Of a stretch of DNA of 64,000 bases, positions 34,620 through 51,327 are shown piece by piece; within the stretch, counting starts at the first letter, position 1; each line of letters starts with the position of its first letter. Source of the DNA: an uncultured Spirochaetales bacterium (GTDB lineage Bacteria; Spirochaetota; Spirochaetia; SZUA-6); contig CAZQTC010000007.1 of NCBI GenBank assembly GCA_964596425.1, positions 10,294 through 74,293 on the forward strand. The letters run 5' to 3'. The translations under genes were made by a program, and so were the position numbers. The notes below the pieces were generated by a model that was given only the letters and a program-made list of their open reading frames with translations, was not told the DNA's origin and made no database searches.

Positions 34620-36767
34620 CTACATACGTACCCTCAAAAGTCTTGCATTTATTGCAACAATAACCGTGCTAAGAGACATAAGTACTGCCCCGGCGGCAGG
34701 ACTCAAAAGTACCCCAAAACTATACAGAACACCCGCAGCCAGTGGAATGGCAAGCGCATTGTATCCTGTTGCCCATGCAAGATTCTGAACCATCTTTCTA
34801 TAGGTTGCCCTGGCAAGTTTTAGTATCTTAACAACATCGAGAGGGTTACTCCTAACAAGTACTATATCGGCGGTTTCTATAGCAACATCACTACCGGCAC
34901 CAATCGCAATTCCAACATCGGCACTTGCAAGAGCCGGAGCGTCATTAACCCCATCCCCCGTCATTGCAACAACAAAGCCACGCGATTTCACCTCTTTAAC
35001 CCTACTAGCCTTTTCATGCGGCAGAACCTCCGCAAAAACTTCACCTATACCAATTTCTTTTGCAACCCAATTTGCAACCTCTCTGTTGTCCCCGGTTAGC
35101 ATAATGGTACGAACTCCCATACCCTTTAACTTTTCAACAGCCAATTTTGATTCCTCCCTCACAACATCAGCAAGGGCAATTACCCCCTTGGGTTTCCCAT
35201 CGAGAAGGAGATAAACAACCGTCTTGCCCTGTTTAAAGAGATTCGTGATTCGACTATCATCCATATCCACACCCTTATCCTTAAGGTAACCGGGACTAAC
35301 CACCATCACCTCCCTTCCGTCAACACGTCCGATAGCACCCCTACCAGGTATTGCCTTAAAATCCGTTACAGGCAAAACTCTGTTTTCAGGAACATCAATA
35401 GAAATATCAGTCAGATTATCATCCCTCTTTTCGGACGCCTTTTTGGACTCTTCACCGGAAACCATATCACTAGCGCTTGCCTCAACAGAGCGAGAAGTTA
35501 GCGAAAGTACAATACCTTTAGCAATCGGATGCTCCGAGTTCGCCTCCACCGAGGCCGCATAACGTAAAATCTCTTCCTCTCTCATAGAGTGATCCAACAC
35601 AACAATATCGGTTACCCCAAATCTTCCCTCTGTCAGGGTCCCCGTTTTATCAAATATCACAGCTTGAATATTTCTCGCATGCTCAAAGGCCGCCCGGTTT
35701 CGAATTAGAAGTCCGTTCTTAGCAGAAATCGCAGTGGATACCGCAACAACCAGAGGAACAGCCAGACCAAGTGCATGGGGGCAGGTTATAACCATAACCG
35801 TCACAGTGCGCTCCAGAGCAAAGGCAAAATCCTTATGCACAAGGGCAAGCCAGACAAAAAGGGTAATCCCCCCTGCCCCTAAAGCTATAAGGGTAAGCCA
35901 TAAAGCCGCTCTACTGGCCAGGTCTTGACTTCTGGATTTGCTCTCCTGCGCCTGTCTAACGAGTTTTACCACCTGAGAGAGATAGGAATCCTCACCTGTC
36001 TTTTTTATCTCTACCACCAAAGAACCCTCTCCGTTTACGGCGCCACCTATAACTTCATCGCCCTCCCGTTTAACAACGGGCTTGGACTCTCCGGTAAGCA
36101 TTGCTTCGTTTACAGAACTCTCGCCCTCAATAACCATCCCATCTACCGGAAGCTTTTCTCCCGGTTTTACAAGTACTCTATCTCCGACCTTTAAATTCTC
36201 TACAGAAACATCAATTACCCCTCCATCCGGCAACAACTTATGGGCCTCTGAGGGCATCAGCTTTGCCAACTCTTCCAAAGCCTTAGAGGCTCCCATAACC
36301 GACTTCATCTCGATCCAGTGACCCAAAAGCATAATATCCACAAGGGTTACAAGCTCCCAAAAAAACACCTTCCCGGGAAGTCCAAAAACAACCACACTGC
36401 TATAGACATAGGCTGTGGAAATTGCAAGTCCTATGAGACTCATCATCCCGGGTAGTTTCTTTCTAAGCTCCCTAACAAGCCCACTCAAGAATGGCCAACC
36501 ACCGTAGAAAAATACAAATGTAGAAAGGCCAAAAAGAATATAACCGTCTCCCTTAAAGGCAATTAATTCTCTAATCCCGAAAAGTTTCTGAATCATAGGA
36601 GACAGTGCCAGTATAGGAAGGGTGAATACAACAGAAATCCAAAATCGCTTGCGGAAATCAGCTACCATGTGAGCATGGTGCGAGCTATGAGCGTGTTTGT
36701 GATCGTGATCCTCGGGACTATGCTGCATGTGTTCATGATGTTCGTGATGAGTATGTTTATTATCCAT
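34620..36767 (-). CDS. copB: Copper-translocating P1B-type ATPase with His-rich N-terminus and CPH motif (CopB / P1B-3-like)
   Basis: N-terminus [39 protein letters not shown] motif (ITCPHALG). DKTGT phosphorylation site. GDGVNDAP hinge. No CxxC HMA domain. About 35 aa are inserted in the nucleotide-binding domain. Confidence 0.9.
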
Positions 36768-36785
36768 ATATCAAACCTCCTTATC

Positions 36786-37028
36786 CTAATCCATGAGATC
36801 TTTTTTCATCCGAAGGTACTCTTCCCTATCAATTTCTCCTCTGATATAGCTAGCTTTAAGCTCTTCAAGGGGGTCCATATACAATTTCCCCCTGCCAATC
36901 CCCCGCCTTATGAGAAAAACGATAAGAAAAATCACCCCAACTACAAGAAGAACCATTATCCCAAACATAATCCATCCATAAAGCCCCCAGTAGCCGGAGA
37001 CCCAACTGCCAATTCTATTCCCCATCAT
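36786..37028 (-). CDS. SHOCT-domain small membrane protein
   Basis: N-terminal TM (WIMFGIMVLLVVGVIFLIVFLI) followed by the C-terminal SHOCT motif YIRGEIDREEYLRMKKDL. It is 18 bp upstream of copB and probably co-transcribed with it. Confidence 0.6.
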   Translation of the reverse strand: MMGNRIGSWVSGYWGLYGWIMFGIMVLLVVGVIFLIVFLIRRGIGRGKLYMDPLEELKASYIRGEIDREEYLRMKKDLMD

Positions 37029-37119
37029 TGTTTCGTCCCCCCTCTAATTCCATACTCTTCCTCCTAATGTAACGTCGAAACTCAAAACAACCGCATCTCG
37101 TGGAGACCTCAGCCATACC

Positions 37120-37136
37120 ATACCCCCCAGGGGTCT
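37120..37136. promoter_or_regulatory. Second CsoR-box-like site ATACCCCCCAGGGGTCT in the SHOCT-copB / eamA divergent promoter region
   Basis: Identical 15-mer to the csoR-proximal site. It lies about 92 bp upstream of the SHOCT-copB start on the minus strand. Confidence 0.5.
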
Positions 37137-37255
37137 CGCACGCACATACATAATACAAAAGTTTACCAAAGGAGTCAACTTAAAAACCAAAAAACTACCC
37201 CCAAAAACAAAAGCAACACTAGATTCAACCCTTAAATGATACTACTATCAGAATA

Positions 37256-38185
37256 ATGAAAAGGCCCAAAGACCGCTCACTAATATTACTCTCGTACATA
37301 ACAATATATGTCGTGTGGGGCTCAACCTACTTTTTCATTAAAATGGCCGTAAAAAGCATTCCCCCTCTGGGGGTAGTGGGCATACGCTTTCTTATAGGAG
37401 GCTTTTTCTTCCTTCTCATTGCCATACTAACAAGACGCCTAAGTCCCCCACCAACCATAAAACAAGTTGGAGCCTCTATACTACTGGGAAGCTTACTCCT
37501 CCTGGGAGGAAACGGACTAATCTCGTACGCGGAGAGACAGGTAGATAGCTACCTGGTGGCCCTAATAATAGCCTCTACACCCCTTGTTGTTGCTATCTTT
37601 GACAGAGTACTTCTGCAAAAAAGAATAACATCGGTAAGAATTATCGGGATAATACTCGGAGAAATCGGAGTAGCACTACTGGTATACAACGGAAAATCAT
37701 TCATCACCAGTCTAAATCCCGAGATAGCGATGGTTATCCTTGCAATCCTATTATGGGCTCTGGCAACGACACTCGGACATAAATTCAACGTATACTCGGA
37801 CAATCTGGTAAACAGCGGGATACAAATGCTCTTTGCCGGAATCGTTGCCCTATCAGCAAGTCTTGTACTCGGAGAACTAAGCGTGAACTCTCCAAGGGAA
37901 ATTACAATCTCCTCCCTGCTTGGCCTTGTATACCTAACCGTAATAGGCTCCCTTGCTTTTAGCGCTTACACATACCTTCTTATCCATGAACCTGCCTCCA
38001 GAATTGTAAGCTACTCACTGGTAAATCCCGTGATCGCTGTAATTTTAGGCTTTTTTCTCGGAAACGAAACACCTGTTCCCTACTTTGCGATAGGTCTTCC
38101 ACTCATACTCGCAGGATTACTAGCCCTACTCTACGGAGAAACACTTTTAAAAAAATTAAAAATTGTCCTATCAAAAAAATCATAA
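37256..38185 (+). CDS. EamA/DMT-superfamily transporter (two EamA repeats, 10 TM)
   Basis: Duplicated 5-TM halves. Conserved G-rich motifs appear at the ends of both repeats (GNGLISYAER; EPASRIVSYSLVNPV). Confidence 0.8.
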   Translation: MKRPKDRSLILLSYITIYVVWGSTYFFIKMAVKSIPPLGVVGIRFLIGGFFFLLIAILTRRLSPPPTIKQVGASILLGSLLLLGGNGLISYAERQVDSYLVALIIASTPLVVAIFDRVLLQKRITSVRIIGIILGEIGVALLVYNGKSFITSLNPEIAMVILAILLWALATTLGHKFNVYSDNLVNSGIQMLFAGIVALSASLVLGELSVNSPREITISSLLGLVYLTVIGSLAFSAYTYLLIHEPASRIVSYSLVNPVIAVILGFFLGNETPVPYFAIGLPLILAGLLALLYGETLLKKLKIVLSKKS

Positions 38186-38218: not shown

Positions 38219-38890
38219 CTACCCTCCTACTACCCTCTTCTCAATCCTCTCCCGCAAACTCTCAAAATCAACCCTACCAATCTCCTCAAATACCATATCG
38301 GCATCCGTTAGTACCTCCGGGCTACCAATTCCAACGGCAAGCATATTGGCACTCCTTGCCGCAGTTATTCCGGCCTTTGAATCTTCAAAAACAGCACAAC
38401 GCTCGGGAGGAATTTCAAACATCCTTGCAGCGAGGAGAAATTGGTCCGGGGCAGGTTTTGTGCGCTCAACCGAATACCCATCAAGTATCACATCTACAAT
38501 CTCTTCTATCCCCAACCTTTTTACAATTTCCCTCGTATTCTTAGAAACGGAAGCTACCGCAATTTTCCCATCGCTCCTCCATATTTTTCTGAATAGAGGA
38601 AGCACACCGGGAAAGAGCGATCCGGGTCCCACACGTTTTAAATATTCCCTGTAATACGAGTTTTTTCTCTCGAGGAGTTCCTCTATCTTATCCTCCGGGA
38701 GTTCTCTTCCATCCAGAAGAAGCAACAGACAATCCCTTCTAGAAACCCCCTTAAAGGCCTCATTTTTCTCCCGATCAAAGGGAATCCCCAACTCATTGGC
38801 TATCCGTTTCCAGGCAAGATAGTGATACTCTGAGGTCGCGGTAAGCACTCCATCAAGATCAAAAATAAACCCATAAGCCATTTTTTTCAT
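38219..38890 (-). CDS. pgmB: Beta-phosphoglucomutase (HAD superfamily)
   Basis: HAD motif I FDLDGVLT immediately after the internal Met (MKKMAYGFIFDLDGV). The caps and motifs are typical of beta-PGM. The start is moved to 38890 from the longer ORF, which has no signal or TM. Confidence 0.75.
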   Translation of the reverse strand: MKKMAYGFIFDLDGVLTATSEYHYLAWKRIANELGIPFDREKNEAFKGVSRRDCLLLLLDGRELPEDKIEELLERKNSYYREYLKRVGPGSLFPGVLPLFRKIWRSDGKIAVASVSKNTREIVKRLGIEEIVDVILDGYSVERTKPAPDQFLLAARMFEIPPERCAVFEDSKAGITAARSANMLAVGIGSPEVLTDADMVFEEIGRVDFESLRERIEKRVVGG

Positions 38891-38923
38891 AACGCTCCCC
38901 AAACAATCCTCAAAACACTTGAA

Positions 38924-38939
38924 TCCAAAGCGCTTTGGA
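38924..38939. promoter_or_regulatory. Perfect 16-bp palindrome TCCAAAGCGCTTTGGA. A candidate LacI-family operator in the pgmB / GH65 divergent region.
   Basis: Same core as the 24-bp palindrome at 41594. It has the CG centre typical of LacI/CcpA-type operators. It overlaps the ORF-track start of the GH65 gene. Confidence 0.5.
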
Positions 38940-38945
38940 AATATT

Positions 38946-41579
38946 ATGTTGATTATGAGCGAAGTAAAAAAATTTGTCAACGGAGGAACCACATTGGGAA
39001 TACAGAAGGAAAACACATTCACCCCATATCCAGAAACAGTCAAACTCATACCACCCAAAAGCCCAGACGAATGGCTTATAGAACGAAAGGGATACAGAAA
39101 AGCGGAAAATGGTTACTTTGAAAGTCTCTTTGTCCTCTCTAACGGATACATAGGCATAAGAAACACCCTTGACTTCTCCGACCCAAATATAAAACCAGGG
39201 ATATTCGTAGCTGGGCTTTACGACAATGCACCCGTGGTATTTAGCGAACTGGCCAATCTCCCCTCGTGGTTACGCTGGGAAATCTTTCCGGTTTCTCACT
39301 CTTTCAACTACCAGGACTTCGACTCAGGTGGCTTTACACTACACGAGGGAGAAAAAAACTTCTATCAAGCCCTTGATATGCAAAAAGGTGCATTATATAC
39401 ATCCTTTATCCTCACATCCGAGGAAAAATCAGAGAAACAAAAAAAGATATTGGTAGAAACCTTTCAGTTTCCACACACCCTGAAGAAGGAACTATACCTA
39501 TCCATTATCAATATCACCCCGCTCAATTTTACGGGGAAAATTTCAATAAGATTCTTTCTGGAAAACAATTCCCACAATGAGGGACTCTATCCATGGCTAC
39601 ACATACACCACCTCAAAACGGAGGAGATAGGATTTCTAAACCTACCACCAGAGAGCTCGGGAGAAGACTCTCAATACAAAGGGGTATACCTATTGTCAAA
39701 GACTCGGGTCACAGAGAAACAACTCCTTCAATGCTCCATTACCATGCCCTACCCAACCCCGGCTACCCGGAATGTTAACTATAGGAGAGGGTACTCAAAA
39801 GCGGGGGTATGGGAAGAGATGTTACTCAATATGAAAGAGGGAAAAACCTACCCCTTTTGCAGATTAGTCTTTAACAAAATCTTACCGGAATCTTCCGGCG
39901 AAAAGATTCTTACAGAACTTCCGGGGGAGAGAACAAAGAAAACTCCCCGGGAAGACCCTCGGAGAAACCTAAAAAACGACGTGGAAGAATTTTCAAAATT
40001 GCTCAGTATCGATATTCAAAAACTCATTACATCCCATACAGAGAAATGGAAAGAAAAATGGGAGAAGGCATGGATATACCTGGAAGGGGATAGTAAATCA
40101 CTCGAGGCAGTCAGATTTAGCACCTTCCAACTTTTACAGGCATACGATGAAAAAAGCCCCCTTACAAGTATCCCGGCAAAGGGGCTCACCGGAGAGGGTT
40201 ACAAGGGACATATATTCTGGGATACCGAAATTTTCATGCTTCCGTTTTACCTATACACAAATCCCGAAGCCGCCAAAAGGCTCTTACTCTACAGAGTAAA
40301 AAGACTTAACACTGCAAAGGAAAATGCCCAAAAAACGGGCACCCAAGGGGCTCGCTTCCCCTGGGAATCCGCCGAGAGTGGCAAAGAGGTAACTCCCTAT
40401 GAAATTTATGATTTTGTGGATGAAAAAACCTACTTCATATACACGGGGAAAGAGGAACTTCATGTGACAGCCGACATAGCCTATGCGGTTATCCAGTACT
40501 ACAATGCAACAGGCGACAGAGAATTTTTACTTCACAACGGTCTTCCCTTACTAATTGAAACCGCAAGGTTCTGGGCCAGTAAAACAGAATGGGACGATAC
40601 AAAAAAAGCATTTGTCATAAAAAAAGTCATAGGCCCGGATGAATTTCATGAACATGTCGACAACAGTTTCTTTACCAATTTTATGGCGGCATGGAACCTC
40701 GAAGTGGCTGCCCAAACTGTGGAAGAGATGAAAAATTTTACTGACATAGAAGTGAAAGCAAAAGAATTACAACATTGGAAACATATAGCTGAGAATATCT
40801 ATCTTCCCACTTCAAACGACGGGATACTCGAGGAATTTGAAGGATACTTCGAACTTGAAAACGTAACAATAAAAGATTGGGATTCTAATTCTATGCCCAT
40901 AATTCCGGAAGAAGTCAAAGAGAGAGTAGAAAAAACTCAGCTTATAAAGCAGGGGGATGTGGTGCTTTTGTTTCACCTACACCCAAACAAATTCAAACCA
41001 GAGACTATAAAGAAAAATTTCCTATACTACGAGGCCAGAACAACCCATAATTCCTCCCTGAGTCCGATGGTATACGCTATAGTCGGACTAAAAATAGGAA
41101 TAGAAGATCTGGCTCTCAAAAATTTCCTGAGAACCTCCAGGGTAGATCTTGACAACAATCAGGGCAACATTCAATTAGGGCTCCATCTCGCCGCATGCGG
41201 TGGCACATGGCAGGCGGTAGTAAACGGATTTGCAGGGGTATCCGCTACCCAGGAGAAAATAGAGATCAACCCAAGACTTCCAGAATCATGGCACCTATTA
41301 GAATTCAGACTCAATTGGAGAGCAAATACATTAAAAATAGAAATAACACAGGAGGCAACAAGAGTGGAGTTAGAAAACTCTTCCGGGCAAACTCCTAAAA
41401 TAAAGCAGAGAGTCCCACAGGATTGGATACTACAGAATCCAGAGAGAATTCCCGTAGTTGTTAGCGGGGTTCAATACCTCTTAGACGAAAAGAACAGGGC
41501 AATTCTGGCTAAAAACCCCGTAAAAACCGGAATGCTGAAAAATAAAAACCAAAAACTTGACACCAAATATGAAAAATGA
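38946..41579 (+). CDS. Glycoside hydrolase family 65 disaccharide phosphorylase (maltose/kojibiose/trehalose phosphorylase type)
   Basis: GH65 catalytic signature GEGYKGHIFWDTEIFMLPFY, with the general-acid Glu in WDTE. It has (alpha/alpha)6 barrel-sized C-terminal two-thirds and a long N-terminal beta-sandwich region with insertions. The start is shifted to the ATG at 38946, because the operator palindrome overlaps 38919. Confidence 0.8.
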   Translation: MLIMSEVKKFVNGGTTLGIQKENTFTPYPETVKLIPPKSPDEWLIERKGYRKAENGYFESLFVLSNGYIGIRNTLDFSDPNIKPGIFVAGLYDNAPVVFSELANLPSWLRWEIFPVSHSFNYQDFDSGGFTLHEGEKNFYQALDMQKGALYTSFILTSEEKSEKQKKILVETFQFPHTLKKELYLSIINITPLNFTGKISIRFFLENNSHNEGLYPWLHIHHLKTEEIGFLNLPPESSGEDSQYKGVYLLSKTRVTEKQLLQCSITMPYPTPATRNVNYRRGYSKAGVWEEMLLNMKEGKTYPFCRLVFNKILPESSGEKILTELPGERTKKTPREDPRRNLKNDVEEFSKLLSIDIQKLITSHTEKWKEKWEKAWIYLEGDSKSLEAVRFSTFQLLQAYDEKSPLTSIPAKGLTGEGYKGHIFWDTEIFMLPFYLYTNPEAAKRLLLYRVKRLNTAKENAQKTGTQGARFPWESAESGKEVTPYEIYDFVDEKTYFIYTGKEELHVTADIAYAVIQYYNATGDREFLLHNGLPLLIETARFWASKTEWDDTKKAFVIKKVIGPDEFHEHVDNSFFTNFMAAWNLEVAAQTVEEMKNFTDIEVKAKELQHWKHIAENIYLPTSNDGILEEFEGYFELENVTIKDWDSNSMPIIPEEVKERVEKTQLIKQGDVVLLFHLHPNKFKPETIKKNFLYYEARTTHNSSLSPMVYAIVGLKIGIEDLALKNFLRTSRVDLDNNQGNIQLGLHLAACGGTWQAVVNGFAGVSATQEKIEINPRLPESWHLLEFRLNWRANTLKIEITQEATRVELENSSGQTPKIKQRVPQDWILQNPERIPVVVSGVQYLLDEKNRAILAKNPVKTGMLKNKNQKLDTKYEK

Positions 41580-41593
41580 TTTAATTAATTATA

Positions 41594-41617
41594 GTTTTCC
41601 AAAGCGCTTTGGAAAAC
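41594..41617. promoter_or_regulatory. Perfect 24-bp palindrome GTTTTCCAAAGCGCTTTGGAAAAC between GH65 and lacI. A candidate LacI-family operator, and possibly also a terminator hairpin.
   Basis: Verified as a perfect inverted repeat. It sits 15 bp after the GH65 stop and 29 bp before the LacI gene. Confidence 0.5.
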
Positions 41618-41645
41618 GTACAAAGATCAAGATCGGCTAAGGCCC

Positions 41646-42650
41646 ATGATAAAACTATCTGATATCGCAAAAGAACTTAATCTTTCACTCACAACAGTCT
41701 CTAGAGCTCTAAATAATTACAGTGATGTGAGTCCAAAAACCCGAAAACTTGTTTTAGAAACAGCAAAAAGGTTGGGTTATATACCAAACCTATCTGCAAG
41801 GGGGCTTGCTCTTAGAAAGAATCACCTGGTGAGTCTTTTCTATTACGATTATGTTAACGCGGGCCCCTATCAACCATTCACCTTTGAGGTTATAGCGGGC
41901 ATTAGAAAATTTTTCAGTAATACCTCCTATGATCTCATAATGATTCCGGAAACGAGAAGAGGGAGAAAGCCGGAATCTCTAAAAAACATCTGTTACTCCA
42001 GGGGAATAGACGGGCTAATCATCCTTGGCATTCTCACAGACGATCCCTACCTGGACGAGCTAAGGAGTGATTTCATCCCGGCAGTATTTCTAGACTATCC
42101 AATGGTCGGAAAGAAAACCTCCTATGTAGAATCGGATAACATACGGGGATGCAAATTGGCAATTGACTACCTAGTCTCTCAGGGTCACACACGAATTGCC
42201 TTCATAAACGGCCACGATCTGGCTGCTGTCACCCCCGTTAGGCTAAAGGGTTATAAAGAGGGACTTGAAAAGCACAACATAGAGTACGACCCCGAAATTG
42301 TTGAAACGGGTGACTATACTGAGAGAAGCGGATACATAGCAGCCAGAAACCTGTTGCTCAAGAAGAAAGGGATTACCGCCATCTTTGCCGCATCCGATCT
42401 CATGGCAATAGGAGCCATACGAGGCCTAAACGATATCGGACTTAAGGTCCCTGATGACGTAGCTGTGGTTGGGTTCGACGATATACTTCTAGCCGAATAT
42501 TTTCAACCAAGGCTTACAACAATCAGACAGCACAAATTTGAACTGGGTTTCCAGGCTGCAGCGGAACTTCACTGCATAATGGAAAAGCCGGAATACATCC
42601 CCAAGGTAAGAAGGATAAAGGTAGAGCTTATAATAAGAGATTCCGCATGA
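41646..42650 (+). CDS. LacI-family transcriptional regulator
   Basis: N-terminal HTH MIKLSDIAKELNLSLTTVSRALNN, with a periplasmic-binding-fold effector domain. Confidence 0.9.
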   Translation: MIKLSDIAKELNLSLTTVSRALNNYSDVSPKTRKLVLETAKRLGYIPNLSARGLALRKNHLVSLFYYDYVNAGPYQPFTFEVIAGIRKFFSNTSYDLIMIPETRRGRKPESLKNICYSRGIDGLIILGILTDDPYLDELRSDFIPAVFLDYPMVGKKTSYVESDNIRGCKLAIDYLVSQGHTRIAFINGHDLAAVTPVRLKGYKEGLEKHNIEYDPEIVETGDYTERSGYIAARNLLLKKKGITAIFAASDLMAIGAIRGLNDIGLKVPDDVAVVGFDDILLAEYFQPRLTTIRQHKFELGFQAAAELHCIMEKPEYIPKVRRIKVELIIRDSA

Positions 42651-42743: not shown

Positions 42744-44054
42744 ATGAGAAAGATTCTCATCCTTTTAATTTCGTTTTTTCTTGTTGTAAGCGTTTCCTCC
42801 GTATTTGCAGGGGGGAAACAGGAAGAAAAACCCTCAGCAAAAACAGCTACTGTATCGGCAGGGGCACAACCAACCAGTTTTAAAAAAATTCCCGTAACAA
42901 AAAAGGTAACCATTGTGTTCTCCGGCTGGGGGGATCAGACAGAACAAAAGATTTACAGGGATTCAATTGTTAGATTCAACAAGATTTATCCCAACATCAA
43001 GGTAGATTACCAACCGATACCGGCTGATTTTCAAACAAAAATAAAGGCAATGATGGCCGGAGGAACCGCACCGGATGTCTTTTATGTGGACGATCAGCTT
43101 ATGACCGCTCTTGGAAGAACGGGCCAACTACTCCCGCTGGACAACTACATGAAACAGGCAGGCGTTTCACGAAAGGATTTTATTACTGAGCTTCTAAAGA
43201 TTTTTACCTACAAGAATAAAACCTACGGGTTACCAAAAGACTGGGGAACACTGGGATTGGTTTATCTGCCGGAGGCATTCACCGCTGCCGGGATACCCGA
43301 ACCCAACGATAACTGGAACTGGGATAATCTATTCGAGGCTGCGAAAAAAATTGCCAAAAACACCAAATTCGCGGGTTTCATCCAGAACCCGGATTGGGCA
43401 AGATTCGCTCCGTGGGCATTCGAGGCCGGAGGCTCGTATACCAATGCGGATTATACAAAGGCAACCCTTGACACACCGGAGATCAAAAAGGCCGCATCTT
43501 ACATACTCAACATGAAAAAAGCTGGTGCGCTTGTAACGAGTTCCGATGTAGGCGCCTCATGGGCGGGTGAAGCTATTGGAAAGAAGGTAGTTGCTATGAC
43601 CTACGAAGGCGGTTGGATGGTTAACTTTATGCGCCAGAATTACCCCAACGTAAAATGGAAAGCAGCCAAAGTTGTCAAGGGCTTAAACGGAGTCCGTTCC
43701 GATGTTATATTTACCAACGCGATAGGTGTTAATGCCAATACAAAGTATCCTACGGCCTCCGCTGTTTTTACAATATTCGTAACAAGCCGGGAGAATCAGG
43801 CTGAGATCGTAAAGACCGGTTTCGCATATTCAACTCATCCTGATCAGATCAACCTTATTCAGAATCCCAACGACAAAGAAATTGCCGCAGGAGGGCTTGT
43901 GGGAAAGGTCGCCTACTGGGGCCCAAACACGGGAAAGATTAACGACCAGGTTAGCAAGGCTCTGGAAAGAATCTACCTAGGGGTACAGACGGTGGATCAA
44001 TCCTTTGCAGAGGCCAACAAAAAGGTTAACGAAATTCTCTCGGGTAACGAATAG
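42744..44054 (+). CDS. Sugar ABC transporter substrate-binding protein (SBP family 1), lipoprotein or secreted
   Basis: Signal peptide with VSSVFAGGKQE (compare the paralogue at 53209). Family-1 SBP length and motifs. Confidence 0.85.
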   Translation: MRKILILLISFFLVVSVSSVFAGGKQEEKPSAKTATVSAGAQPTSFKKIPVTKKVTIVFSGWGDQTEQKIYRDSIVRFNKIYPNIKVDYQPIPADFQTKIKAMMAGGTAPDVFYVDDQLMTALGRTGQLLPLDNYMKQAGVSRKDFITELLKIFTYKNKTYGLPKDWGTLGLVYLPEAFTAAGIPEPNDNWNWDNLFEAAKKIAKNTKFAGFIQNPDWARFAPWAFEAGGSYTNADYTKATLDTPEIKKAASYILNMKKAGALVTSSDVGASWAGEAIGKKVVAMTYEGGWMVNFMRQNYPNVKWKAAKVVKGLNGVRSDVIFTNAIGVNANTKYPTASAVFTIFVTSRENQAEIVKTGFAYSTHPDQINLIQNPNDKEIAAGGLVGKVAYWGPNTGKINDQVSKALERIYLGVQTVDQSFAEANKKVNEILSGNE

Positions 44055-44117: not shown

Positions 44118-45143
44118 ATGCAAAGAAAATTGACATTTAGGATAATAACAAAACATCAATCACTCAGTCAAATGAAGCGAAGGGAAGAGGTAGCTGCTTA
44201 CATTTTTATTTCACCCTACCTTATTTCCGCACTGATATTCACCGTAGGACTGTTAGCATTTGCCCTCTACATCAGCCTCTGTAAGTGGAACATATTCACT
44301 TCACCCCACTATGTTGGATTAAAAAACTATCTTAAAATATTCAAATCAAAAGAGTTTATTAGAGCCCTCTTTAACATTTTCTGGTACTCACTTATCGTTG
44401 TCACATTTCAGACCATAATAGCCATGCTTATGGCAACCCTTTTAAACAAACCTATCCCGGGTTCCAGTTTTTTCAGAACCTTCTTCTACGCCCCAAGTGT
44501 AACCTCCAGCGTTGTCATTTCAATGATTTTCTGGTGGTTGTACCTAAAAACAGGATTTCTAAACCTTGCAATAGGTAAAATTTTTCTCCTATTCCATGCA
44601 CATTGGAAGAATATCGACTGGCTAAACGACCCAAGGGGACTATTTCAGCTAATAGCAGGGGCATTTGATAAAAAGATAAATTATTCGGAGTGGTATTTCA
44701 CGGGTCCAAGTATAACCTGGATGGCTATTATGTTTCAGGCTATATATACAACCTCTCCGACATTCATGATCATGTTTCTGGCAGCACTACAGAACATCCC
44801 CTCTTCCCTCTACGAATCTGCATCGATTGACGGTGCATCCCAGTGGACTCAATTTATCCGTATAACCGTTCCTCTGCTCAGGCCGGTCATCATGATGGTT
44901 GTGGTACTCGGGACAATCGGGACCCTTCAATTGTTCGACTATGTAAAAATAATGACGGCAGGGGGGCCGCTCGGAACCACCATGGTTCCCGTATATCTGA
45001 TATACAGGGAAACACTGGGTACGGAGGGACCAATTAGAGCCGGTTATGGGGCGGCGATGGCATTTATACTGGCGGCAATTATCTTTATATTCACCTACCT
45101 TCAGCGAAGGTTCATCGAAAAAGGCACGGAACGCTACTATTGA
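44118..45143 (+). CDS. Sugar ABC transporter permease (MalF/UgpA-like)
   Basis: Six TM helices. EAA-loop region IDGASQWTQFIRITVPLLRPV. The start may be the internal Met at 44178. Confidence 0.85.
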   Translation: MQRKLTFRIITKHQSLSQMKRREEVAAYIFISPYLISALIFTVGLLAFALYISLCKWNIFTSPHYVGLKNYLKIFKSKEFIRALFNIFWYSLIVVTFQTIIAMLMATLLNKPIPGSSFFRTFFYAPSVTSSVVISMIFWWLYLKTGFLNLAIGKIFLLFHAHWKNIDWLNDPRGLFQLIAGAFDKKINYSEWYFTGPSITWMAIMFQAIYTTSPTFMIMFLAALQNIPSSLYESASIDGASQWTQFIRITVPLLRPVIMMVVVLGTIGTLQLFDYVKIMTAGGPLGTTMVPVYLIYRETLGTEGPIRAGYGAAMAFILAAIIFIFTYLQRRFIEKGTERYY

Positions 45144-45185: not shown

Positions 45186-46079
45186 ATGAAAGAAAATGTA
45201 CTTACCATCAATAGGAACATAAATGAACCTAAAGGGAAACCCCCGGTATACTATATAAAGCTGGGGTTTAAATATCTTTTACTGGTTCTTATATCCCTTT
45301 TGCTCTTCTTCCCATTTATCCTTGCCTTCTTCGGAACCCTTAAGTCCAATGCCGAGATAACAGCGTGGCCCCCAAAGGTACTCCCCTCCCACTGGTTATG
45401 GATAAACTGGGTAAAAACATGGAAAACCGACCTCGGCAGAGGGGGAACCTTCCCTCGCTGGATATTTAATACCGCTTTTCTCTCAGTCGTAATCGCGTCC
45501 CTTCAGGTGGTTTTCTGTTCGATGGCCGCGTATGCATTTGCTCGCCTGCGTTTTAGGGGAAAGGAATTGATATTTACCTTCATGATCTCCTCTATGATGC
45601 TCCCTGGTGTCGTAACCCTGGTTCCAAAGTATGTAATGATGGCAAAGCTAAAGCTAATAAACACATACTGGAGCCTCATCCTACCGGGAGCGGTTGAGGC
45701 ATTCGGGATATTTCTCCTTACCCAGTACTTTAAATCCATCCCCCACGAACTCGAAGAGGCTTGTATGATTGATGGGGCAAGCTACTTTAAAATTTACAGG
45801 ACAGTGGTGCTTCCCCTATCACGCCCCGCACTCTTAACACTCTACATCCTGAAATTCCAGGCCACATGGAACAACTTTCTCGATCCTCTCCTCTATCTGA
45901 ATAGGGTTAACATGTGGACTCTAAATGTCGCCCTTATGACATTCCAGCAGCAGTACAAAGCCCAGTGGAATCTCACCTTAGTAGGGGCAATGTTTAATGC
46001 AATACCAGTCCTCGTTATCTTTTTCTTCTTTAGTAAGTACTATATAGAAGGAGTCTCCTTTAGCGGGCTCAAGGAGTAA
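45186..46079 (+). CDS. Sugar ABC transporter permease (MalG/UgpE-like)
   Basis: Six TM helices. EAA loop IDGASYFKIYRTVVLPLSRPA. Confidence 0.85.
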   Translation: MKENVLTINRNINEPKGKPPVYYIKLGFKYLLLVLISLLLFFPFILAFFGTLKSNAEITAWPPKVLPSHWLWINWVKTWKTDLGRGGTFPRWIFNTAFLSVVIASLQVVFCSMAAYAFARLRFRGKELIFTFMISSMMLPGVVTLVPKYVMMAKLKLINTYWSLILPGAVEAFGIFLLTQYFKSIPHELEEACMIDGASYFKIYRTVVLPLSRPALLTLYILKFQATWNNFLDPLLYLNRVNMWTLNVALMTFQQQYKAQWNLTLVGAMFNAIPVLVIFFFFSKYYIEGVSFSGLKE

Positions 46080-47993: not shown

Positions 47994-49226
47994 TTAAACA
48001 AATTTCACTACATCTGACTCTGAATCCTTTAGAAACTCCTGTATATGAAGAGAGGCAGCTCCAAGAGCTATGGCTATCCTACCAAGATCGGAAATTTCTA
48101 TAGGAACGGATTCCTTGGTATAGTAGAGGGCTCGCTTGTCTACCTCGGTTCTTATTGGATTTAACAGTAATCTCCCCGCTTGAGAAAGATTACCACTAAG
48201 CACTATTTTTTCCGGATCGAAGAGTTTTATCAAATTTGCAATTTGAACACCAAGTATCTTTGCCATCTCCGTGATCAATTCTATAGAGAAAATATCACCG
48301 CCAAGTGCCGCATTTACTATAATTTCCTCATTTATCATCTCAATATCCCCCTTGACCAACTCTACAAGTTTGGTTTTTTCCCCCGCTCTAATCCTATCTT
48401 TGGCTTTTCTGGAAAGGGCGTGTCCAGACGCAAGCGTTTCGAGACACCCTCGTTTACCGCAGTAACAGAGATCCCCGTCTTCCTTCACCGTTATATGTCC
48501 AAGCTCGAAATTCCCATGGGCACCTGTTTGAATCACTCCCCCCATTATTACCCCCATCCCAATACCCCAGGCAAGATTTATACACAGCCCATCCCTTATT
48601 CCCCTGAGCTTACCAAACCATTTTTCCGCACTTGTCATTAATCTCGCGTCTTTTTCTATCAACACAGGCAGTCCCATATAACTTGCAAGCCTCTCCTCCA
48701 TTTCCCGAAGGACACGAGAATCGTTTTCATTGGTAGCAGAAAACTGCCTCGCAAGATCCCCCGTAAATCCAAAGCCTACTCCACGAAGGTTCTCTTTTGG
48801 AATACCCTTAGCAGCTAGATAACCTTCAAGGTAGGTAAGCGTACTTTCTGCCAAACCCTTAAGAGGTTCTTCACTTGTCAGAATCTCCCTACTCCTAACA
48901 GTACCCTCATGCACAATCTCGTTTTCTATATTAACAATCACCAAAGTATTATGGGCATGGCCCACCTCAACCCCAGCAAAGAGGAGTTTCTCCTTATTTA
49001 ATCTGTATAACGTGGGTCTTCTTCCCCCTGTTGATGTCCCAGGGCCCAGTTCTGTTATAATATCCTCTTTTTGAAGCTGCGAAAGAAGAGAACTCACAGT
49101 GGGATAGTTAGACGAAAGCCGTTTAGATATCTCGGCTATAGAAATGGGTTCGCCAGCCTCAACCAACGTTTTTAGAATCAATTTCTTTCTCAGACGTTGC
49201 TTTACAGCTACTCTATCCTCATTCAT
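47994..49226 (-). CDS. ROK-family transcriptional regulator (N-terminal wHTH + ROK sugar-kinase-like domain)
   Basis: HTH (ISIAEISKRLSSNYPTVSSLLSQL). ROK zinc motif CYCGKRGCLETLAS. It overlaps the upstream DUF5107-like gene by 8 bp. Confidence 0.85.
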   Translation of the reverse strand: MNEDRVAVKQRLRKKLILKTLVEAGEPISIAEISKRLSSNYPTVSSLLSQLQKEDIITELGPGTSTGGRRPTLYRLNKEKLLFAGVEVGHAHNTLVIVNIENEIVHEGTVRSREILTSEEPLKGLAESTLTYLEGYLAAKGIPKENLRGVGFGFTGDLARQFSATNENDSRVLREMEERLASYMGLPVLIEKDARLMTSAEKWFGKLRGIRDGLCINLAWGIGMGVIMGGVIQTGAHGNFELGHITVKEDGDLCYCGKRGCLETLASGHALSRKAKDRIRAGEKTKLVELVKGDIEMINEEIIVNAALGGDIFSIELITEMAKILGVQIANLIKLFDPEKIVLSGNLSQAGRLLLNPIRTEVDKRALYYTKESVPIEISDLGRIAIALGAASLHIQEFLKDSESDVVKFV

Positions 49227-51327
49227 AGTCTTCTCTCACCATACTCCTATCTATGTCGGATACTTTCCTAAAATCAATATTCTTAGGCGGGGGATACTTT
49301 CTTCTTACCTCTTCCCTTATTGCCTCAGTTACGATTCCCCCTAACCGGGCGGAGAGTTTCTTCTCCCACATTCCAAACCATAGGTCAGTAAGTTCCGTTT
49401 CACCCTCCCTAATACAGGCAAACTCACCCTTTAATATTTCCTCCAATGTATTAAAATCATCCTTTTCATAAGCTATTCTAGCCCTAACAATTCGCACTCT
49501 ATCCAGCCTTTTTATTTCTTCAGGCAAATTTTCATATACAGTAAGAGATTCATCATACATCCCACACCTATTCAAAATTTCCAAATATTCCTCTGCTATT
49601 CCTGGTTCCAATATACCATCCTCCACGGCCTTTTCCCAGGCCTTCCCAAGGTAGGTGCGTGCCAATAAGGTATTATTATCTCTCAGGGCTAACTGCCCAA
49701 GATTTCGAAAAACCCAACATGAGGCTTCCAAACGAATAGACTCCTCCCATACCTTTCTAGCCCCTACTTTATCACCATTCTCCATAAGCATAACACCATA
49801 GTGAAGAAGTGAATACCAGTTCCTCTCCCTCTCAAGGGATTTCTCCAGCAGGGGAAGCCATTCACTTTGAACCATCCACGAATCCGGGACCTCGTTCGTA
49901 TTTTTCCTTGGCAAAATCCCACTCTTTAGCAATTCCAGCCAGGGTTTCTCCTCTTTACCCATCGAATCTTCGGGGAAATTAAGGGAAACAGGAACCCTAC
50001 CAACAACCCCTTCTCTTTTACATCTCTCTATCTCCAGGGCTCCCCACCCACTTCCAACATGCAAAATTTCCACAGGTTTAAAAAGTGCATATCTGCTAAG
50101 TTGCTCATTAAAAGAGCGCAAAACTGTAGGTTTAATAGTAGATTCCAGGGAATTAGTGACACCATGAACAACCTCTCCCCAATCATTCGAATGAGCAATT
50201 TTAGGATCAGTTTTTATCGAGCCAAAAAGTTCGGTCCATTCCCAGACATCTCCCCTCTTCATAGGAACACTATGCTGTTGAGTTTTTCCAAAACCCGCCT
50301 GTAACTCTATATAAGCCTCTCCCTCTCGAGAAAGAAACTCTTTCCAATGCCTTCCTCCCTGATGCATTCCGAAACAGAACATTTTCCTAACCGGAAAATT
50401 TTTAGTAGAAATTTCAATAAACCCCCTCCCATCTCCCTCTATCGCAGCCCCCCACGGCATCTCTACACCCTGACACTGGTAATAGATTTCACTGGAGAAG
50501 TCGTAGTTGCTCGGGTAGGTGGCATCCTTTCCATCGAGGGAGGGAATATAAGGAAGCCGCGATTTCCCATAACCATAGCTATCGTAATAATTTTTCTCCC
50601 TACGCTTACCGGATGTAGAAGATCTCATATAAATCACTTCCTCCGCCGGAGCAATCACGCGAGTACTCTTACGTTCAGGAAGGGCAATGTTAGTCCACCA
50701 ATACATAGGCAACTCTCTACCAGTAGTATTCTCTATCCTTATATGACAGAAAAGATACCGGGACTCCATGGGAAGATGAAGATCAACCTGCCAAAAAAGT
50801 CCCTTCCTCCTCTCATATTCATAAATTCTTATACCTACAGAGTCCTCCCATGAGTGTATCCGCGCTACGTACACAGATGAACAGGTAAAATAAGAGTGCC
50901 CCAACTGCCCTATATTCCATTCAATACCACCGGCAAACCACGCATTTCGCAGGGCAAGATTTCCAAACCGAATATACGGATTTCTAAACAGTAGCTCTCT
51001 CTCCTCTTTCTTATCGTACAACGAATGAACTCTAGCCCCAAGCTGGGGTAATACCTCAACCCTAAGATGATCATTCTCTAAAATAACGGTTTTTAATTTT
51101 CTCCTACTCATCTTCCGGGTATATCTATCCTGCATTCTATAGGGGAGAACCTTCCTCCCGTTATCCCAACCAAGATAACGGATATCTTCCTCATTCATGC
51201 TCTCATCAACGGGAACCTTTAAATCCTGAACCTCATCGCTAAAAAAAGGAAGAGGATTTTCACCCCCAAGATACGCAATATCGTACAGCTTATCCTTCAC
51301 GTATAACTCCGTTTCCATTACAGCCAC
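49219..51327 (-). CDS. Large uncharacterised protein (DUF5107-like N-terminal region + C-terminal TPR-like helical repeats), embedded in a sugar ABC operon
   Basis: 702 aa with no signal peptide. N-terminal ~450 aa has a beta-rich composition with conserved-looking blocks (FRNPYIRFGNLALRNAWFAGGIEWN). The C-terminal ~250 aa are helical and TPR-like. The family assignment is from memory only. Confidence 0.45.
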   Translation of the reverse strand: MAVMETELYVKDKLYDIAYLGGENPLPFFSDEVQDLKVPVDESMNEEDIRYLGWDNGRKVLPYRMQDRYTRKMSRRKLKTVILENDHLRVEVLPQLGARVHSLYDKKEERELLFRNPYIRFGNLALRNAWFAGGIEWNIGQLGHSYFTCSSVYVARIHSWEDSVGIRIYEYERRKGLFWQVDLHLPMESRYLFCHIRIENTTGRELPMYWWTNIALPERKSTRVIAPAEEVIYMRSSTSGKRREKNYYDSYGYGKSRLPYIPSLDGKDATYPSNYDFSSEIYYQCQGVEMPWGAAIEGDGRGFIEISTKNFPVRKMFCFGMHQGGRHWKEFLSREGEAYIELQAGFGKTQQHSVPMKRGDVWEWTELFGSIKTDPKIAHSNDWGEVVHGVTNSLESTIKPTVLRSFNEQLSRYALFKPVEILHVGSGWGALEIERCKREGVVGRVPVSLNFPEDSMGKEEKPWLELLKSGILPRKNTNEVPDSWMVQSEWLPLLEKSLERERNWYSLLHYGVMLMENGDKVGARKVWEESIRLEASCWVFRNLGQLALRDNNTLLARTYLGKAWEKAVEDGILEPGIAEEYLEILNRCGMYDESLTVYENLPEEIKRLDRVRIVRARIAYEKDDFNTLEEILKGEFACIREGETELTDLWFGMWEKKLSARLGGIVTEAIREEVRRKYPPPKNIDFRKVSDIDRSMVREDYE

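What the first reader, a model, noticed from the sequence alone, without database searches (positions are those of the whole stretch)
38219..42650. LacI regulon signature: perfect palindromes TTCCAAAGCGCTTTGGAA on both sides of the GH65 phosphorylase gene; the operator overlaps the predicted GH65 start
A 16-bp perfect palindrome lies at 38924-38939. A 24-bp perfect palindrome sharing the same core lies at 41594-41617. Both have the CG-centred symmetry of LacI/CcpA-family operators, and both flank the GH65 gene directly upstream of the LacI gene. The first site lies between divergently oriented pgmB and GH65 and overlaps the ORF-track ATG at 38919. This argues that the real GH65 start is the ATG at 38946 or 38955, and that the palindrome controls both divergent genes. 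GH65 plus beta-PGM is the classic beta-glucose-1-phosphate route, so the downstream ATPase-less ABC transporter likely imports the cognate alpha-glucoside (maltose, kojibiose, trehalose or nigerose).
Basis: seen in the sequence. Interest (0 to 1): 0.5.

Follow-up and report, generated by a model that had tools for sequence, protein, structure and literature searches.

The report
LacI-type operators of a kojibiose locus
The two palindromes are very probably the binding sites of the repressor encoded next to them, switching off a small sugar-uptake and breakdown gene cluster of an already described kind, so the finding is real but ordinary.

Summary
TCCAAAGCGCTTTGGA occurs exactly twice (38924-38939; 41598-41613, extended to a 24-bp palindrome 41594-41617). 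These are the two longest perfect palindromes in the window.

Both sites are kept in three orthologous loci whose synonymous sites are near saturation. Each sits on conserved sigma-70-type promoter elements. The same motif follows LacI relatives of 57-62% identity, and a one-position variant (CGAAAGCGCTTTCG) follows relatives of 35-40% identity in Bacillales. They are therefore best read as operators of the adjacent LacI-family repressor: O1 for divergent pgmB and GH65, O2 for lacI plus the ABC genes (autoregulation). A terminator reading fails.

The GH65 start is most likely TTG 38994 (GGAGG 7 nt upstream), the only start shared by all orthologues. TTG 38919 is the -35 box and ATG 38946 overlaps the -10 box.

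The GH65 carries the published kojibiose-phosphorylase fingerprint (EEAPxx) and the Ser-Ser phosphate site. The regulator is 43% identical, and the binding protein 33%, to the predicted KojR/KojE of Caldicellulosiruptor.

Verdict: a new member of a known kind, in a Spirochaetales-like uncultured lineage. Interest is low.

The parts
38219..38890 (-). pgmB, beta-phosphoglucomutase (223 aa, ATG 38890, GGGGAG 5 nt upstream)
   Evidence: TIGR01990 bPGM equivalog, 205.4 bits against a 189.4-bit cut-off. HAD Pfam domains. The start matches the orthologues' 219-220 aa gene calls.
38924..38939 (.). Operator O1, perfect 16-bp CG-centred palindrome TCCAAAGCGCTTTGGA (20-bp footprint 38922-38941)
   Evidence: 31.4 bits. 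Identical in L001 and L003, one mismatch in L005.
38919..38947 (+). Predicted GH65 promoter: -35 TTGAAT (38919-38924), 17-bp spacer holding O1, -10 TATTAT (38942-38947)
   Evidence: Listed by the promoter scan. Both hexamers are conserved in all four lineages (TTGAAT/TTGAAT/TTGATT/TTGCAT; TATTAT x3/TATCAT). The transcription start is inferred, not mapped.
38952..38980 (-). Predicted pgmB promoter: -35 TTGACA (38980-38975), 17-bp spacer, -10 CATAAT (38957-38952); O1 begins 12 nt downstream of the -10
   Evidence: Best promoter-like match in the region, 11 of 12. The TTGTCAA block is conserved in all four lineages. The 12-nt gap from -10 to operator equals that at the lacI promoter. The -10 is less well conserved in the orthologues. 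Inferred.
38982..38986 (+). Shine-Dalgarno GGAGG of GH65, 7 nt before TTG 38994
   Evidence: GGAGG/GGAGG/GGGGG sits at the same place in the orthologues.
38994..41579 (+). GH65 glycoside phosphorylase, kojibiose-phosphorylase-like (861 aa from the revised TTG start)
   Evidence: Pfam GH65 N, central and C domains. Best solved relative is kojibiose phosphorylase 3wiq, 489 bits against 285 or less for other specificities. Fingerprint EEAPYK and HNSSLS phosphate site. Start-codon argument.
41557..41585 (+). Predicted lacI promoter inside the 3' end of GH65: -35 TTGACA (41557-41562), extended -10 TGa (41577-41579, which is also the GH65 stop codon), -10 TTTAAT (41580-41585)
   Evidence: TTGACA, TGn and TTTAAT are invariant in all four lineages. 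The scan does not list it because the -10 lacks A at position 2. Inferred.
41594..41617 (.). Operator O2, perfect 24-bp palindrome (16-bp core 41598-41613), 12 nt downstream of the -10 and centred 40.5 bp upstream of the lacI ATG
   Evidence: 33.1 bits. The core is identical in L001, L003 and L005, 8-12 nt after the conserved -10.
41646..42650 (+). LacI-family regulator (334 aa), KojR-like
   Evidence: PF00356 HTH plus periplasmic-binding-protein-like domains. 97/97/87% identical to the orthologues. 43% identical to Caldicellulosiruptor KojR. Leu54 hinge residue invariant.
42744..44054 (+). ABC substrate-binding protein (CUT1 type), KojE-like
   Evidence: PF01547. 33% identity over 371 aa to C. 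hydrothermalis KojE, E 5e-57.
44118..45143 (+). ABC permease 1
   Evidence: PF00528.
45186..46079 (+). ABC permease 2; no ATPase gene follows (the next gene is MatE)
   Evidence: PF00528. ABC-ATPase-like ORFs occur only elsewhere in the window.

Best explanation
The two palindromes are the operators of the LacI-family repressor encoded at 41646-42650. The repressor is most likely a dimer, since it lacks a LacI-like C-terminal tetramerisation tail. It would read each half-site with its helix-turn-helix and insert the hinge leucine (Leu54) at the central CpG. O1 lies in a 62-bp control region holding two overlapping divergent promoters. It fills the spacer between the -35 and -10 of the GH65 promoter, and it lies 12 nt downstream of the -10 of the pgmB promoter, so one bound dimer would block RNA polymerase at both. 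O2 lies 12 nt downstream of the -10 of a second promoter embedded in the 3' end of GH65. That promoter drives lacI and the three ABC-transporter genes, which makes the system autoregulated. No terminator separates GH65 from lacI, so those genes are also reached from the GH65 promoter. An imported alpha-glucoside, most likely kojibiose or a related alpha-1,2-glucoside, or a derivative of it, would release the repressor. GH65 would then phosphorolyse the sugar to glucose plus beta-glucose-1-phosphate, and PgmB would convert the latter to glucose-6-phosphate. Shown here: the sites, their statistical rarity, their conservation, their positions relative to conserved promoter hexamers, the protein families and the enzyme fingerprint. 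Inferred: binding, repression, transcription starts, the effector and the substrate. The GH65 coding sequence starts at TTG 38994.
For: Sequence and statistics. Phylogenetic footprint: both sites are kept in L001, L003 and L005 (7 of 8 site instances, counting the window's own two, identical over the 16-mer and one with one mismatch), while four-fold synonymous sites in the flanking genes are only 28-45% identical. Promoter elements are co-conserved with the sites. The distance from promoter to O2 is kept (8-12 nt) while the distance to the lacI start codon varies by about 100 bp. That argues for transcriptional control. The motif travels with the regulator. LacI relatives of 57-62% identity carry 3-4 copies of TYCRAAGCGCTTTGRA around their gene, again with GH65, an HAD gene and an ABC transporter but in a different gene order. 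Relatives of 35-40% identity in Bacillales carry CGAAAGCGCTTTCG about 30 bp upstream of their own gene and again before the next operon. The recognition helix is nearly invariant across all of them and Leu54 is invariant. The features match family statistics: even palindrome, central CG, autoregulation, sites 30-140 bp upstream of starts (PMC4052901; distances). Known analogues exist: KojR with pgmB-kojP-kojEFG (PMC8579813; locus L095), and YcjW, which is released from DNA by kojibiose (PMC6599011). Enzyme: EEAPxx fingerprint and Ser-Ser phosphate site (PMC8537180, PMC8626586). Start codon.
Against: Nothing was measured: no binding, expression or transcription-start data. The lacI promoter's -10 (TTTAAT) lacks the canonical A at position 2 and was not picked up by the consensus scan. 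The -10 of the pgmB promoter is only weakly conserved in the orthologues, especially L005. The Caldicellulosiruptor KojR locus has no copy of this motif, so the operator sequence is not shared with the nearest named regulator. The GH65 is only about 36% identical to characterised kojibiose phosphorylases and has a variable insert, so the substrate, and hence the effector, could differ. The gene caller behind P0001 chose ATG 38946.
Confidence: 0.85

Rival explanations
1. The palindromes are cre-like sites for a global CcpA-type catabolite regulator, not for the local LacI protein.
For: The core AAAGCGCTTT resembles the centre of the cre consensus (my own knowledge). CcpA chains are among the regulator's best solved relatives (167 bits).
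Against: The outer cre positions TG...CA are CC...GG here. The closest named relative is a Spirochaetales MAG, and CcpA is a Firmicutes regulator (PMC4052901). The motif occurs next to the gene for this LacI subfamily in several phyla, including directly upstream of the gene itself. No other site in 64 kb scores above 9.7 bits.
Confidence: 0.04
2. The palindromes act as RNA hairpins, either as a transcription terminator after GH65 or as a 5'-UTR structure, and not as protein-binding DNA.
For: Site 2 follows the GH65 stop codon and can fold into a 10-bp hairpin of -15 kcal/mol (z = -2.8). The scan lists a terminator-like hit on the minus strand at 38937-38911.
Against: No U-tract follows site 2. 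In the orthologues the stem is only 6-7 weak pairs and the region folds no better than shuffled sequence. Site 1 lies upstream of both flanking genes. Across lineages the sequence itself is conserved. Where half-sites vary they vary independently, without compensatory changes. No Rfam family matches.
Confidence: 0.02
3. The regulator binds these sites but acts as an activator or dual regulator rather than a simple repressor.
For: Some LacI-family members activate (my own knowledge, for example B. subtilis MdxR, which governs a maltose phosphorylase/beta-PGM operon). Nothing here measures the direction of control.
Against: Both sites overlap core promoter elements or the predicted transcription start, which are the positions typical of steric repression. 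The characterised analogue YcjW is a repressor (PMC6599011).
Confidence: 0.07
4. The GH65 start is ATG 38946, as the public gene call has it, or ATG 38955 on a leaderless mRNA.
For: The frame is open back to 38919. P0001 was called from ATG 38946. ATG 38955 lies about where the predicted transcript begins, which would permit leaderless translation.
Against: Neither ATG has a Shine-Dalgarno sequence. ATG 38946 overlaps the conserved -10 hexamer. L005 has an in-frame stop 6 nt upstream of its start, L001 has no upstream in-frame ATG, and the extension peptide is not conserved. A GGAGG-linked start is present in all four lineages.
Confidence: 0.15

Closest known systems
KojR regulon of Caldicellulosiruptor (LacI-family KojR with pgmB-kojP, treP and the CUT1 transporter kojEFG; predicted by comparative genomics, PMC8579813; also KojR in Chloroflexus, PMC4052901)
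   Same: Same parts list: LacI regulator, GH65 kojibiose-phosphorylase-type enzyme, beta-phosphoglucomutase, and SBP plus two permeases with no ATPase of their own. The proteins are homologous: regulator 43%, SBP 33%, GH65 about 35% identical. Same recognition helix, TVSRALNNYSD.
   Different: Different gene order: pgmB is divergent here and co-directional there, and there is no treP here. The C. hydrothermalis locus has no copy of TCCAAAGCGCTTTGGA within 3 mismatches, so the operator sequence differs. Different phylum (Spirochaetales-like MAG lineage). The GH65 has extra tails and a variable linker insert (861 aa against about 755-775).
E. coli YcjW repressor and the ycjM-V cluster (YcjT kojibiose phosphorylase, YcjU beta-PGM, YcjNOP transporter; PMC6599011)
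   Same: A LacI-type repressor with two palindromic, CG-centred sites inside its own sugar cluster. The cluster contains a GH65 kojibiose phosphorylase, a beta-PGM and an ABC importer. Kojibiose releases the repressor in vitro. The EEAP fingerprint is shared.
   Different: Not orthologous: 28%, 28% and 25% identity for regulator, GH65 and SBP. The E. coli cluster is much larger, with glucosylglycerate phosphorylase, dehydrogenases, an epimerase, its own ATPase and OmpG.
CebR/CelR-type cellobiose repressors (14-bp operator TGGGAGCGCTCCCA; e.g. PMC4358012)
   Same: LacI family, local autoregulated repressors of a CUT1 ABC operon. The operators share the central AGCGCT. The regulator's best solved relative is 5ysz, which I recall (from memory, not checked here) to be Thermobifida CelR. 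The Bacillales relatives of the window's regulator sit in a ceb-like lacI-SBP-permease-permease-GH1 operon.
   Different: The outer half-site bases differ (CCAAAG against TGGGAG). The cargo here is an alpha-glucoside phosphorylase pathway, not a beta-glucosidase.
MalR-type regulation of maltose phosphorylase plus beta-PGM operons in Firmicutes (my own knowledge; MalR motifs are mentioned in PMC8579813)
   Same: A LacI-family repressor controlling a GH65 phosphorylase, beta-PGM and a sugar importer.
   Different: The GH65 here lacks the maltose-phosphorylase fingerprint KV[MF]NES. Orthology of the regulator to MalR was not tested.

Membership tests
LacI/GalR-family repressor-operator pair | Regulator with an N-terminal LacI-type HTH and a periplasmic-binding-protein-like effector domain | tested here: met
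   PF00356 (residues 4-48) plus PF13377/PF00532. Full-length matches to LacI-family NCBIfam models and PDB chains.
LacI/GalR-family repressor-operator pair | Hinge-helix leucine that contacts the central CpG (Leu54 in PurR, Leu56 in LacI; my own knowledge) | tested here: met
   Leu54 in the motif SARGL is invariant in 13 aligned relatives, including YcjW.
LacI/GalR-family repressor-operator pair | Even palindrome of 16-22 nt with a central CG | tested here: met
   16- and 24-bp perfect palindromes; 20-bp consensus TTTCCAAAGCGCTTTGGAAA; CG centre. Criterion from PMC4052901.
LacI/GalR-family repressor-operator pair | Site 30-140 bp upstream of regulated starts; autoregulation common | tested here: met
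   Site centres lie 41.5, 62.5 and 40.5 bp upstream of the pgmB, GH65 (38994) and lacI starts.
LacI/GalR-family repressor-operator pair | Site conserved beside orthologous regulators in other genomes | tested here: met
   against near-saturated synonymous sites.
LacI/GalR-family repressor-operator pair | Physical binding of the protein, and release by an effector | not testable with these tools
   Needs EMSA or footprinting.
KojR-type kojibiose utilisation regulon | LacI regulator clustered with a GH65 kojibiose phosphorylase, pgmB and a CUT1 SBP plus two permeases | tested here: met
   Compare L095 and PMC8579813.
KojR-type kojibiose utilisation regulon | Regulator orthologous to described KojR | tested here: inconclusive
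   43% identity over 303 aa, E 7e-91, with the same recognition helix. No phylogeny was built, and Bacillales relatives in beta-glucoside operons are about as close at 35-40%.
KojR-type kojibiose utilisation regulon | Same operator motif as described KojR | tested here: not met
   No match within 3 mismatches in the C. hydrothermalis locus. I did not retrieve the published KojR motif itself.
GH65 kojibiose phosphorylase | Specificity fingerprint EEAPxx at CsKP positions 64/392/394/402/416/585 (PMC8537180) | tested here: met
   Window reads EEAPYK; the orthologues read EEAPYK, EEAPFK and EEAPYE. Numbering was validated on the CsKP chain, and the characterised TbKP and YcjT also read EEAP at the four fixed positions.
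GH65 kojibiose phosphorylase | Phosphate-binding Ser-Ser (phosphorylase, not hydrolase; PMC8626586) | tested here: met
   HNSSLS at residues 685-690 in numbering from TTG 38994, aligned with HKSSLG in TbKP and HDSSLS in YcjT. The kojibiose hydrolase model scores 255 bits against an 800-bit cut-off.
GH65 kojibiose phosphorylase | Phosphorolysis of kojibiose to glucose plus beta-Glc1P | not testable with these tools
   Needs an enzyme assay. Identity to characterised enzymes is only about 36%.
CcpA/cre | cre consensus with outer TG...CA (my own knowledge) | tested here: not met
   The sites read CC...GG at those positions.
Intrinsic terminator | G+C-rich stem followed by a U-tract at the 3' end of a gene | tested here: not met
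   No U-tract after 41617. The hairpin is not conserved in strength.

The most novel reading that the evidence does not exclude
The regulator may be more than a local sugar switch. It is 97% identical between genomes whose synonymous sites are near saturation and whose GH65 catalytic domains are only 75% identical. That is unusual for a local repressor and could mean a wider regulon or an extra constraint in this uncultured Spirochaetales-like lineage. The fast-evolving GH65, with its variable linker insert, may also act on an undescribed alpha-1,2-glucoside rather than free kojibiose. In addition, a single operator serving two overlapping divergent promoters would be a compacted version of the three-operator arrangement seen in the 59%-identity relatives.
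Probability: 0.15. Interest if true: 0.4.

Novelty: new member of a known kind. Interest (0 to 1): 0.2.

Why it matters
It gives a clean, testable regulatory map, with two operators, three promoters and a corrected start codon, for an alpha-glucoside phosphorylase locus in an uncultured lineage. LacI regulons of Spirochaetes were not covered by the large comparative study (no mention; 7 phyla analysed). It also corrects a public gene call: the 877-aa product probably carries 16 spurious N-terminal residues translated from promoter DNA. Finally it shows that one recognition helix and its AAAGCGCTTT-core operator have been reused across phyla with different cargo: kojibiose-type phosphorylase pathways here and beta-glucoside operons in Bacillales. 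None of this changes how LacI-family control is understood.

Tried and rejected
- **Further regulon members.** I searched the window by mismatch search and by weight matrix and found none.
- **Terminator or RNA structure.** Rejected.
- **Recent horizontal transfer** as the reason for 97% LacI identity. Rejected, because four-fold sites are only 34-41% identical.
- **Shared transporter with the Bacillales or L080 relatives.** Rejected: the SBPs show no significant similarity beyond the family level.
- **Orthology with E. coli YcjW/YcjT/YcjN.** Rejected, at 25-28% identity.
- **The window's motif in the Caldicellulosiruptor KojR locus.** Absent. I saw CGAAA...TTTCG-like repeats there but did not resolve them into a motif.
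- **Contig of the near-identical P0001.** Not on record.
- **A malformed Pfam call** failed and was repeated.
- **Not attempted:** structure prediction of the regulator, a GH65 phylogeny, and a genome-wide scan for the 16-mer.
Full report
**1. The observation**

The sequence is as described. TCCAAAGCGCTTTGGA is a perfect 16-bp palindrome at 38924-38939. GTTTTCCAAAGCGCTTTGGAAAAC is a perfect 24-bp palindrome at 41594-41617 and contains the same 16-mer at 41598-41613. Both are centred on CG.

With up to three mismatches allowed, these are the only two matches in 64 kb, against 0.27 expected. They are the two longest perfect palindromes in the window. For palindromes of 16 bp or more, 2 are observed and about 1.0 expected; for 20 bp or more, 1 is observed and 0.09 expected. 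The two share one sequence, which chance does not explain. A weight matrix built later from 25 related sites scores them 33.1 and 31.4 bits, and the next best position in the window scores 9.7.

Two details of the finding need correcting. The mechanical ORF start at 38919 is TTG, not ATG. The 18-mer in the title is exact only at the second site.

**2. The genes**

Pfam and NCBIfam confirm the gene content:
- a beta-phosphoglucomutase on the minus strand (38219-38890; TIGR01990, 205 bits, above its 189.4-bit cut-off);
- a three-domain GH65 enzyme;
- a LacI-family regulator (41646-42650);
- a family-1 substrate-binding protein and two permeases;
- then an unrelated MatE gene.

The operon has no ATPase gene. 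That is normal for CUT1 transporters, which share an MsmK-type ATPase (PMC8579813).

**3. Conservation**

The GH65 has only three close relatives in the protein collection, at 63, 62 and 53% identity. Their contigs keep the same order: pgmB divergent from GH65, then lacI, SBP and two permeases. One of them is a MAG labelled Spirochaetales bacterium.

Four-fold synonymous sites between the window and these loci are only 28-45% identical, which is close to saturation. Unselected intergenic DNA should therefore be scrambled. Even so, both palindromes are present in all three lineages. Counting the window's own two sites, seven of the eight site instances are identical over 16 bp and one differs at one base.

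The conserved blocks are wider than the palindromes, and the extra conservation falls on promoter-like hexamers.
- **Site 1.** CTTGAATCCAAAGCGCTTTGGAAATATTATGTT is almost invariant. It reads as -35 TTGAAT, a 17-bp spacer filled by the operator, and -10 TATTAT.
- **Further right.** TTGTCAA followed by GGAGG is conserved. On the minus strand that is a TTGACA -35 box which, with CATAAT 17 bp away, is the best promoter-like match in the whole region (11 of 12).
- **Site 2.** TTGACA, then TGn, then TTTAAT are invariant, and the operator core follows 8-12 nt later. The distance from that operator to the lacI start codon varies by about 100 bp between lineages, while its distance to the promoter does not. 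That is the pattern expected of a transcriptional operator.

**4. The motif travels with the regulator**

A scan of reference genomes and metagenomes with the regulator alignment gave two further groups.
- **Relatives of 57-62% identity** carry three or four copies of TYCRAAGCGCTTTGRA: two or three upstream of their own gene and one just after it. Where the contig is long enough, the neighbours are again an HAD (pgmB-like) gene, an SBP, two permeases and a GH65. The order differs, the SBP is unrelated, and the GH65 is only 32% identical.
- **Relatives of 35-40% identity** in Bacillaceae and Exiguobacterium carry CGAAAGCGCTTTCG about 30 bp upstream of their own gene and again before the next operon. 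That operon encodes an SBP, two permeases and a GH1 beta-glucosidase. In Gracilibacillus the sites precede a GH81 glucanase.

The recognition helix is nearly invariant across all groups (S-x-TTVS-R/K-ALNN-Y/H-S-D/E-VS), and the hinge leucine, Leu54, is invariant. The one systematic substitution, R20 to K20, coincides with the change from CCAAAG to CGAAAG. This co-occurrence across phyla is the strongest available argument that the adjacent regulator, not some other protein, reads these sites.

**5. Rivals**

- **Terminator or RNA hairpin.** Site 2 can form a 10-bp hairpin in the window, but no U-tract follows it. The orthologues have only 6-7 weak pairs and fold no better than shuffled sequence. 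Site 1 lies upstream of both neighbouring genes. Half-site variants are not compensatory. Rfam finds nothing.
- **cre/CcpA.** The outer TG...CA positions are CC...GG, the lineage is wrong for CcpA, and the window has no further sites.
- **Activator role.** This cannot be excluded without expression data. However, both sites overlap core promoter elements or the predicted transcription start, which is the geometry of repression.

**6. Mechanism (inferred)**

A dimeric repressor is likely, since the 334-aa protein has no C-terminal tetramerisation tail. It would occupy O1 and O2 when no inducer is present.

O1 lies between the -35 and -10 of the GH65 promoter. It also lies 12 nt downstream of the -10 of the divergent pgmB promoter, the same 12-nt gap as between the lacI promoter's -10 and O2. 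One operator therefore serves two overlapping divergent promoters. In the 59%-identity relatives each divergent promoter has its own downstream operator and a third sits between them, so the window's arrangement looks like a compacted version.

O2 controls lacI and the transporter genes, which are also reached by read-through from GH65 because no terminator intervenes. Site centres lie 41.5, 62.5 and 40.5 bp upstream of the pgmB, GH65 and lacI starts. That is inside the 30-140 bp range holding more than 75% of LacI-family sites, and 72% of such regulators are autoregulated (PMC4052901).

**7. The GH65 start codon**

The first half of the argument is right and the conclusion is probably wrong.
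- TTG 38919 is the -35 hexamer.
- ATG 38946 overlaps the -10 hexamer (TATTAT, 38942-38947, followed by G).
- ATG 38955 lies at the predicted transcription start.
- None of the three has a Shine-Dalgarno sequence.

All three orthologues start at a GTG or TTG 6 nt after a conserved GGAGG or GGGGG. L005 has an in-frame TAA 6 nt upstream of that start. L001 has no upstream in-frame ATG. The peptide encoded by the upstream extension is not conserved. The window equivalent is TTG 38994, with GGAGG at 38982-38986. The public 877-aa gene call (P0001) therefore probably carries 16 spurious residues.

**8. Substrate**

The nearest solved structure by a wide margin is Caldicellulosiruptor kojibiose phosphorylase (3wiq, 489 bits). 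Glucosylglycerol phosphorylase scores 285 bits and maltose phosphorylase 269.

The six published specificity-determining positions read EEAPYK here. The motif is EEAPxx for kojibiose phosphorylases and KV[MF]NES for maltose phosphorylases (PMC8537180). I validated the numbering on the CsKP chain (E64/E392/A394/P402/W416/E585). The fingerprint also holds in the orthologues, in the L080 enzyme, and in the characterised T. brockii and E. coli enzymes.

The two phosphate-binding serines that hydrolases lack (PMC8626586) are present, as HNSSLS. So the enzyme is predicted to be a phosphorylase producing beta-glucose-1-phosphate, which gives PgmB its role. An alpha-1,2-glucoside of the kojibiose type is the best guess. 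This is a prediction at about 36% identity to characterised enzymes.

**9. Comparison with known systems**

The closest described system is the KojR regulon predicted in Caldicellulosiruptor (kojR, pgmB-kojP, treP, kojEFG; PMC8579813). I fetched the C. hydrothermalis locus. Its regulator is 43% identical with the same recognition helix, and its SBP is 33% identical over 371 residues. The window's operator sequence is absent there.

The E. coli YcjW system is the experimentally characterised analogue. It is a LacI-type repressor with two sites in a cluster holding a kojibiose phosphorylase, a beta-PGM and an ABC importer, and kojibiose releases it (PMC6599011). Its proteins are only 25-28% identical to the window's.

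CebR/CelR-type repressors share the AGCGCT centre, and the Bacillales relatives have their gene layout.

**10. Verdict**

The palindromes are real, non-random and almost certainly functional LacI-type operators.

This is a new member of a known kind, in a lineage not covered by earlier regulon reconstructions. One oddity is left unexplained. The regulator (97% identity) is far more conserved than the enzymes it controls: 66-67% overall for GH65, and 75% even in its catalytic domain. Interest is low.

Noticed in passing
window 41646-42650, compared with L001, L003, L005: The LacI regulator is 97/97/87% identical to its orthologues. GH65 is 67/66/56% (catalytic domain 75/75/71%) and pgmB 73/64%, with four-fold synonymous sites near saturation in all genes. 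A local repressor more conserved than its target enzymes is unusual, and I have no explanation for it.
   Followed up: partly
window 41557-41585; L001 10503-10505: The lacI promoter is embedded in the 3' end of GH65. The GH65 stop codon TGA (41577-41579) supplies the TG of the extended -10 in the window. In L001 the GH65 stop TGA lies inside the -35 TTGACA. The last residues of GH65 are therefore encoded by promoter DNA and are not conserved (C-terminal tail 19-27% identical).
   Followed up: partly
window about 39753-40112 (GH65 residues 254-373 from TTG 38994): The segment between the GH65 N-terminal and catalytic domains is longer than in characterised kojibiose phosphorylases. It is highly variable, with indels, among the orthologues (38-53% identity). 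Together with the N- and C-terminal tails it accounts for most of the extra roughly 90 residues.
   Followed up: partly
L007-L043, L075-L077 (Bacillaceae, Exiguobacterium); L014 12358-12610: Relatives of the regulator at 35-40% identity carry CGAAAGCGCTTTCG upstream of their own gene and before an SBP-permease-permease-GH1 operon. In Gracilibacillus halotolerans two sites (TCCAAAGCGCTTTGGT, ACCAAAGCGCTTTGGC) lie upstream of a GH81/CBM6/CBM56 beta-1,3-glucanase. So the same reading head and nearly the same operator govern beta-glucan use there.
   Followed up: partly
L079 182-1297; L005 15152-16033: GH130 (beta-mannoside/mannooligosaccharide phosphorylase family) genes lie next to the regulator or the cluster in two related loci. 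In L079 the GH130 gene is the divergent partner of lacI, with operators between them. This hints that the regulon's cargo varies.
   Followed up: no
window 47994-49226 (-) and 49219-51327 (-): A ROK-family regulator with an N-terminal winged-helix domain lies about 2 kb downstream of the cluster, next to a 702-aa ORF. It is a second sugar-type regulator that I did not examine. It is absent from the equivalent position in L001.
   Followed up: no
window 34620-38185, compared with L001 3503-7190: The flanking P-type ATPase (86% aa identity), EamA transporter (83%) and downstream MatE (90%) are syntenic with L001. The whole neighbourhood, not just the sugar cluster, is therefore vertically inherited.
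   Followed up: partly
window 38946-41579, compared with P0001: A near-identical GH65 from a JGI metagenome (877 aa, a handful of substitutions such as K/E and A/V) shows that a closely related strain exists in public data. Its contig could not be retrieved.
   Followed up: partly
window 40961-40991 (+): A weak Rfam hit to UPD-PKib (25 bits against a gathering score of 39, E 0.3) inside the GH65 coding region. Almost certainly chance.
   Followed up: no
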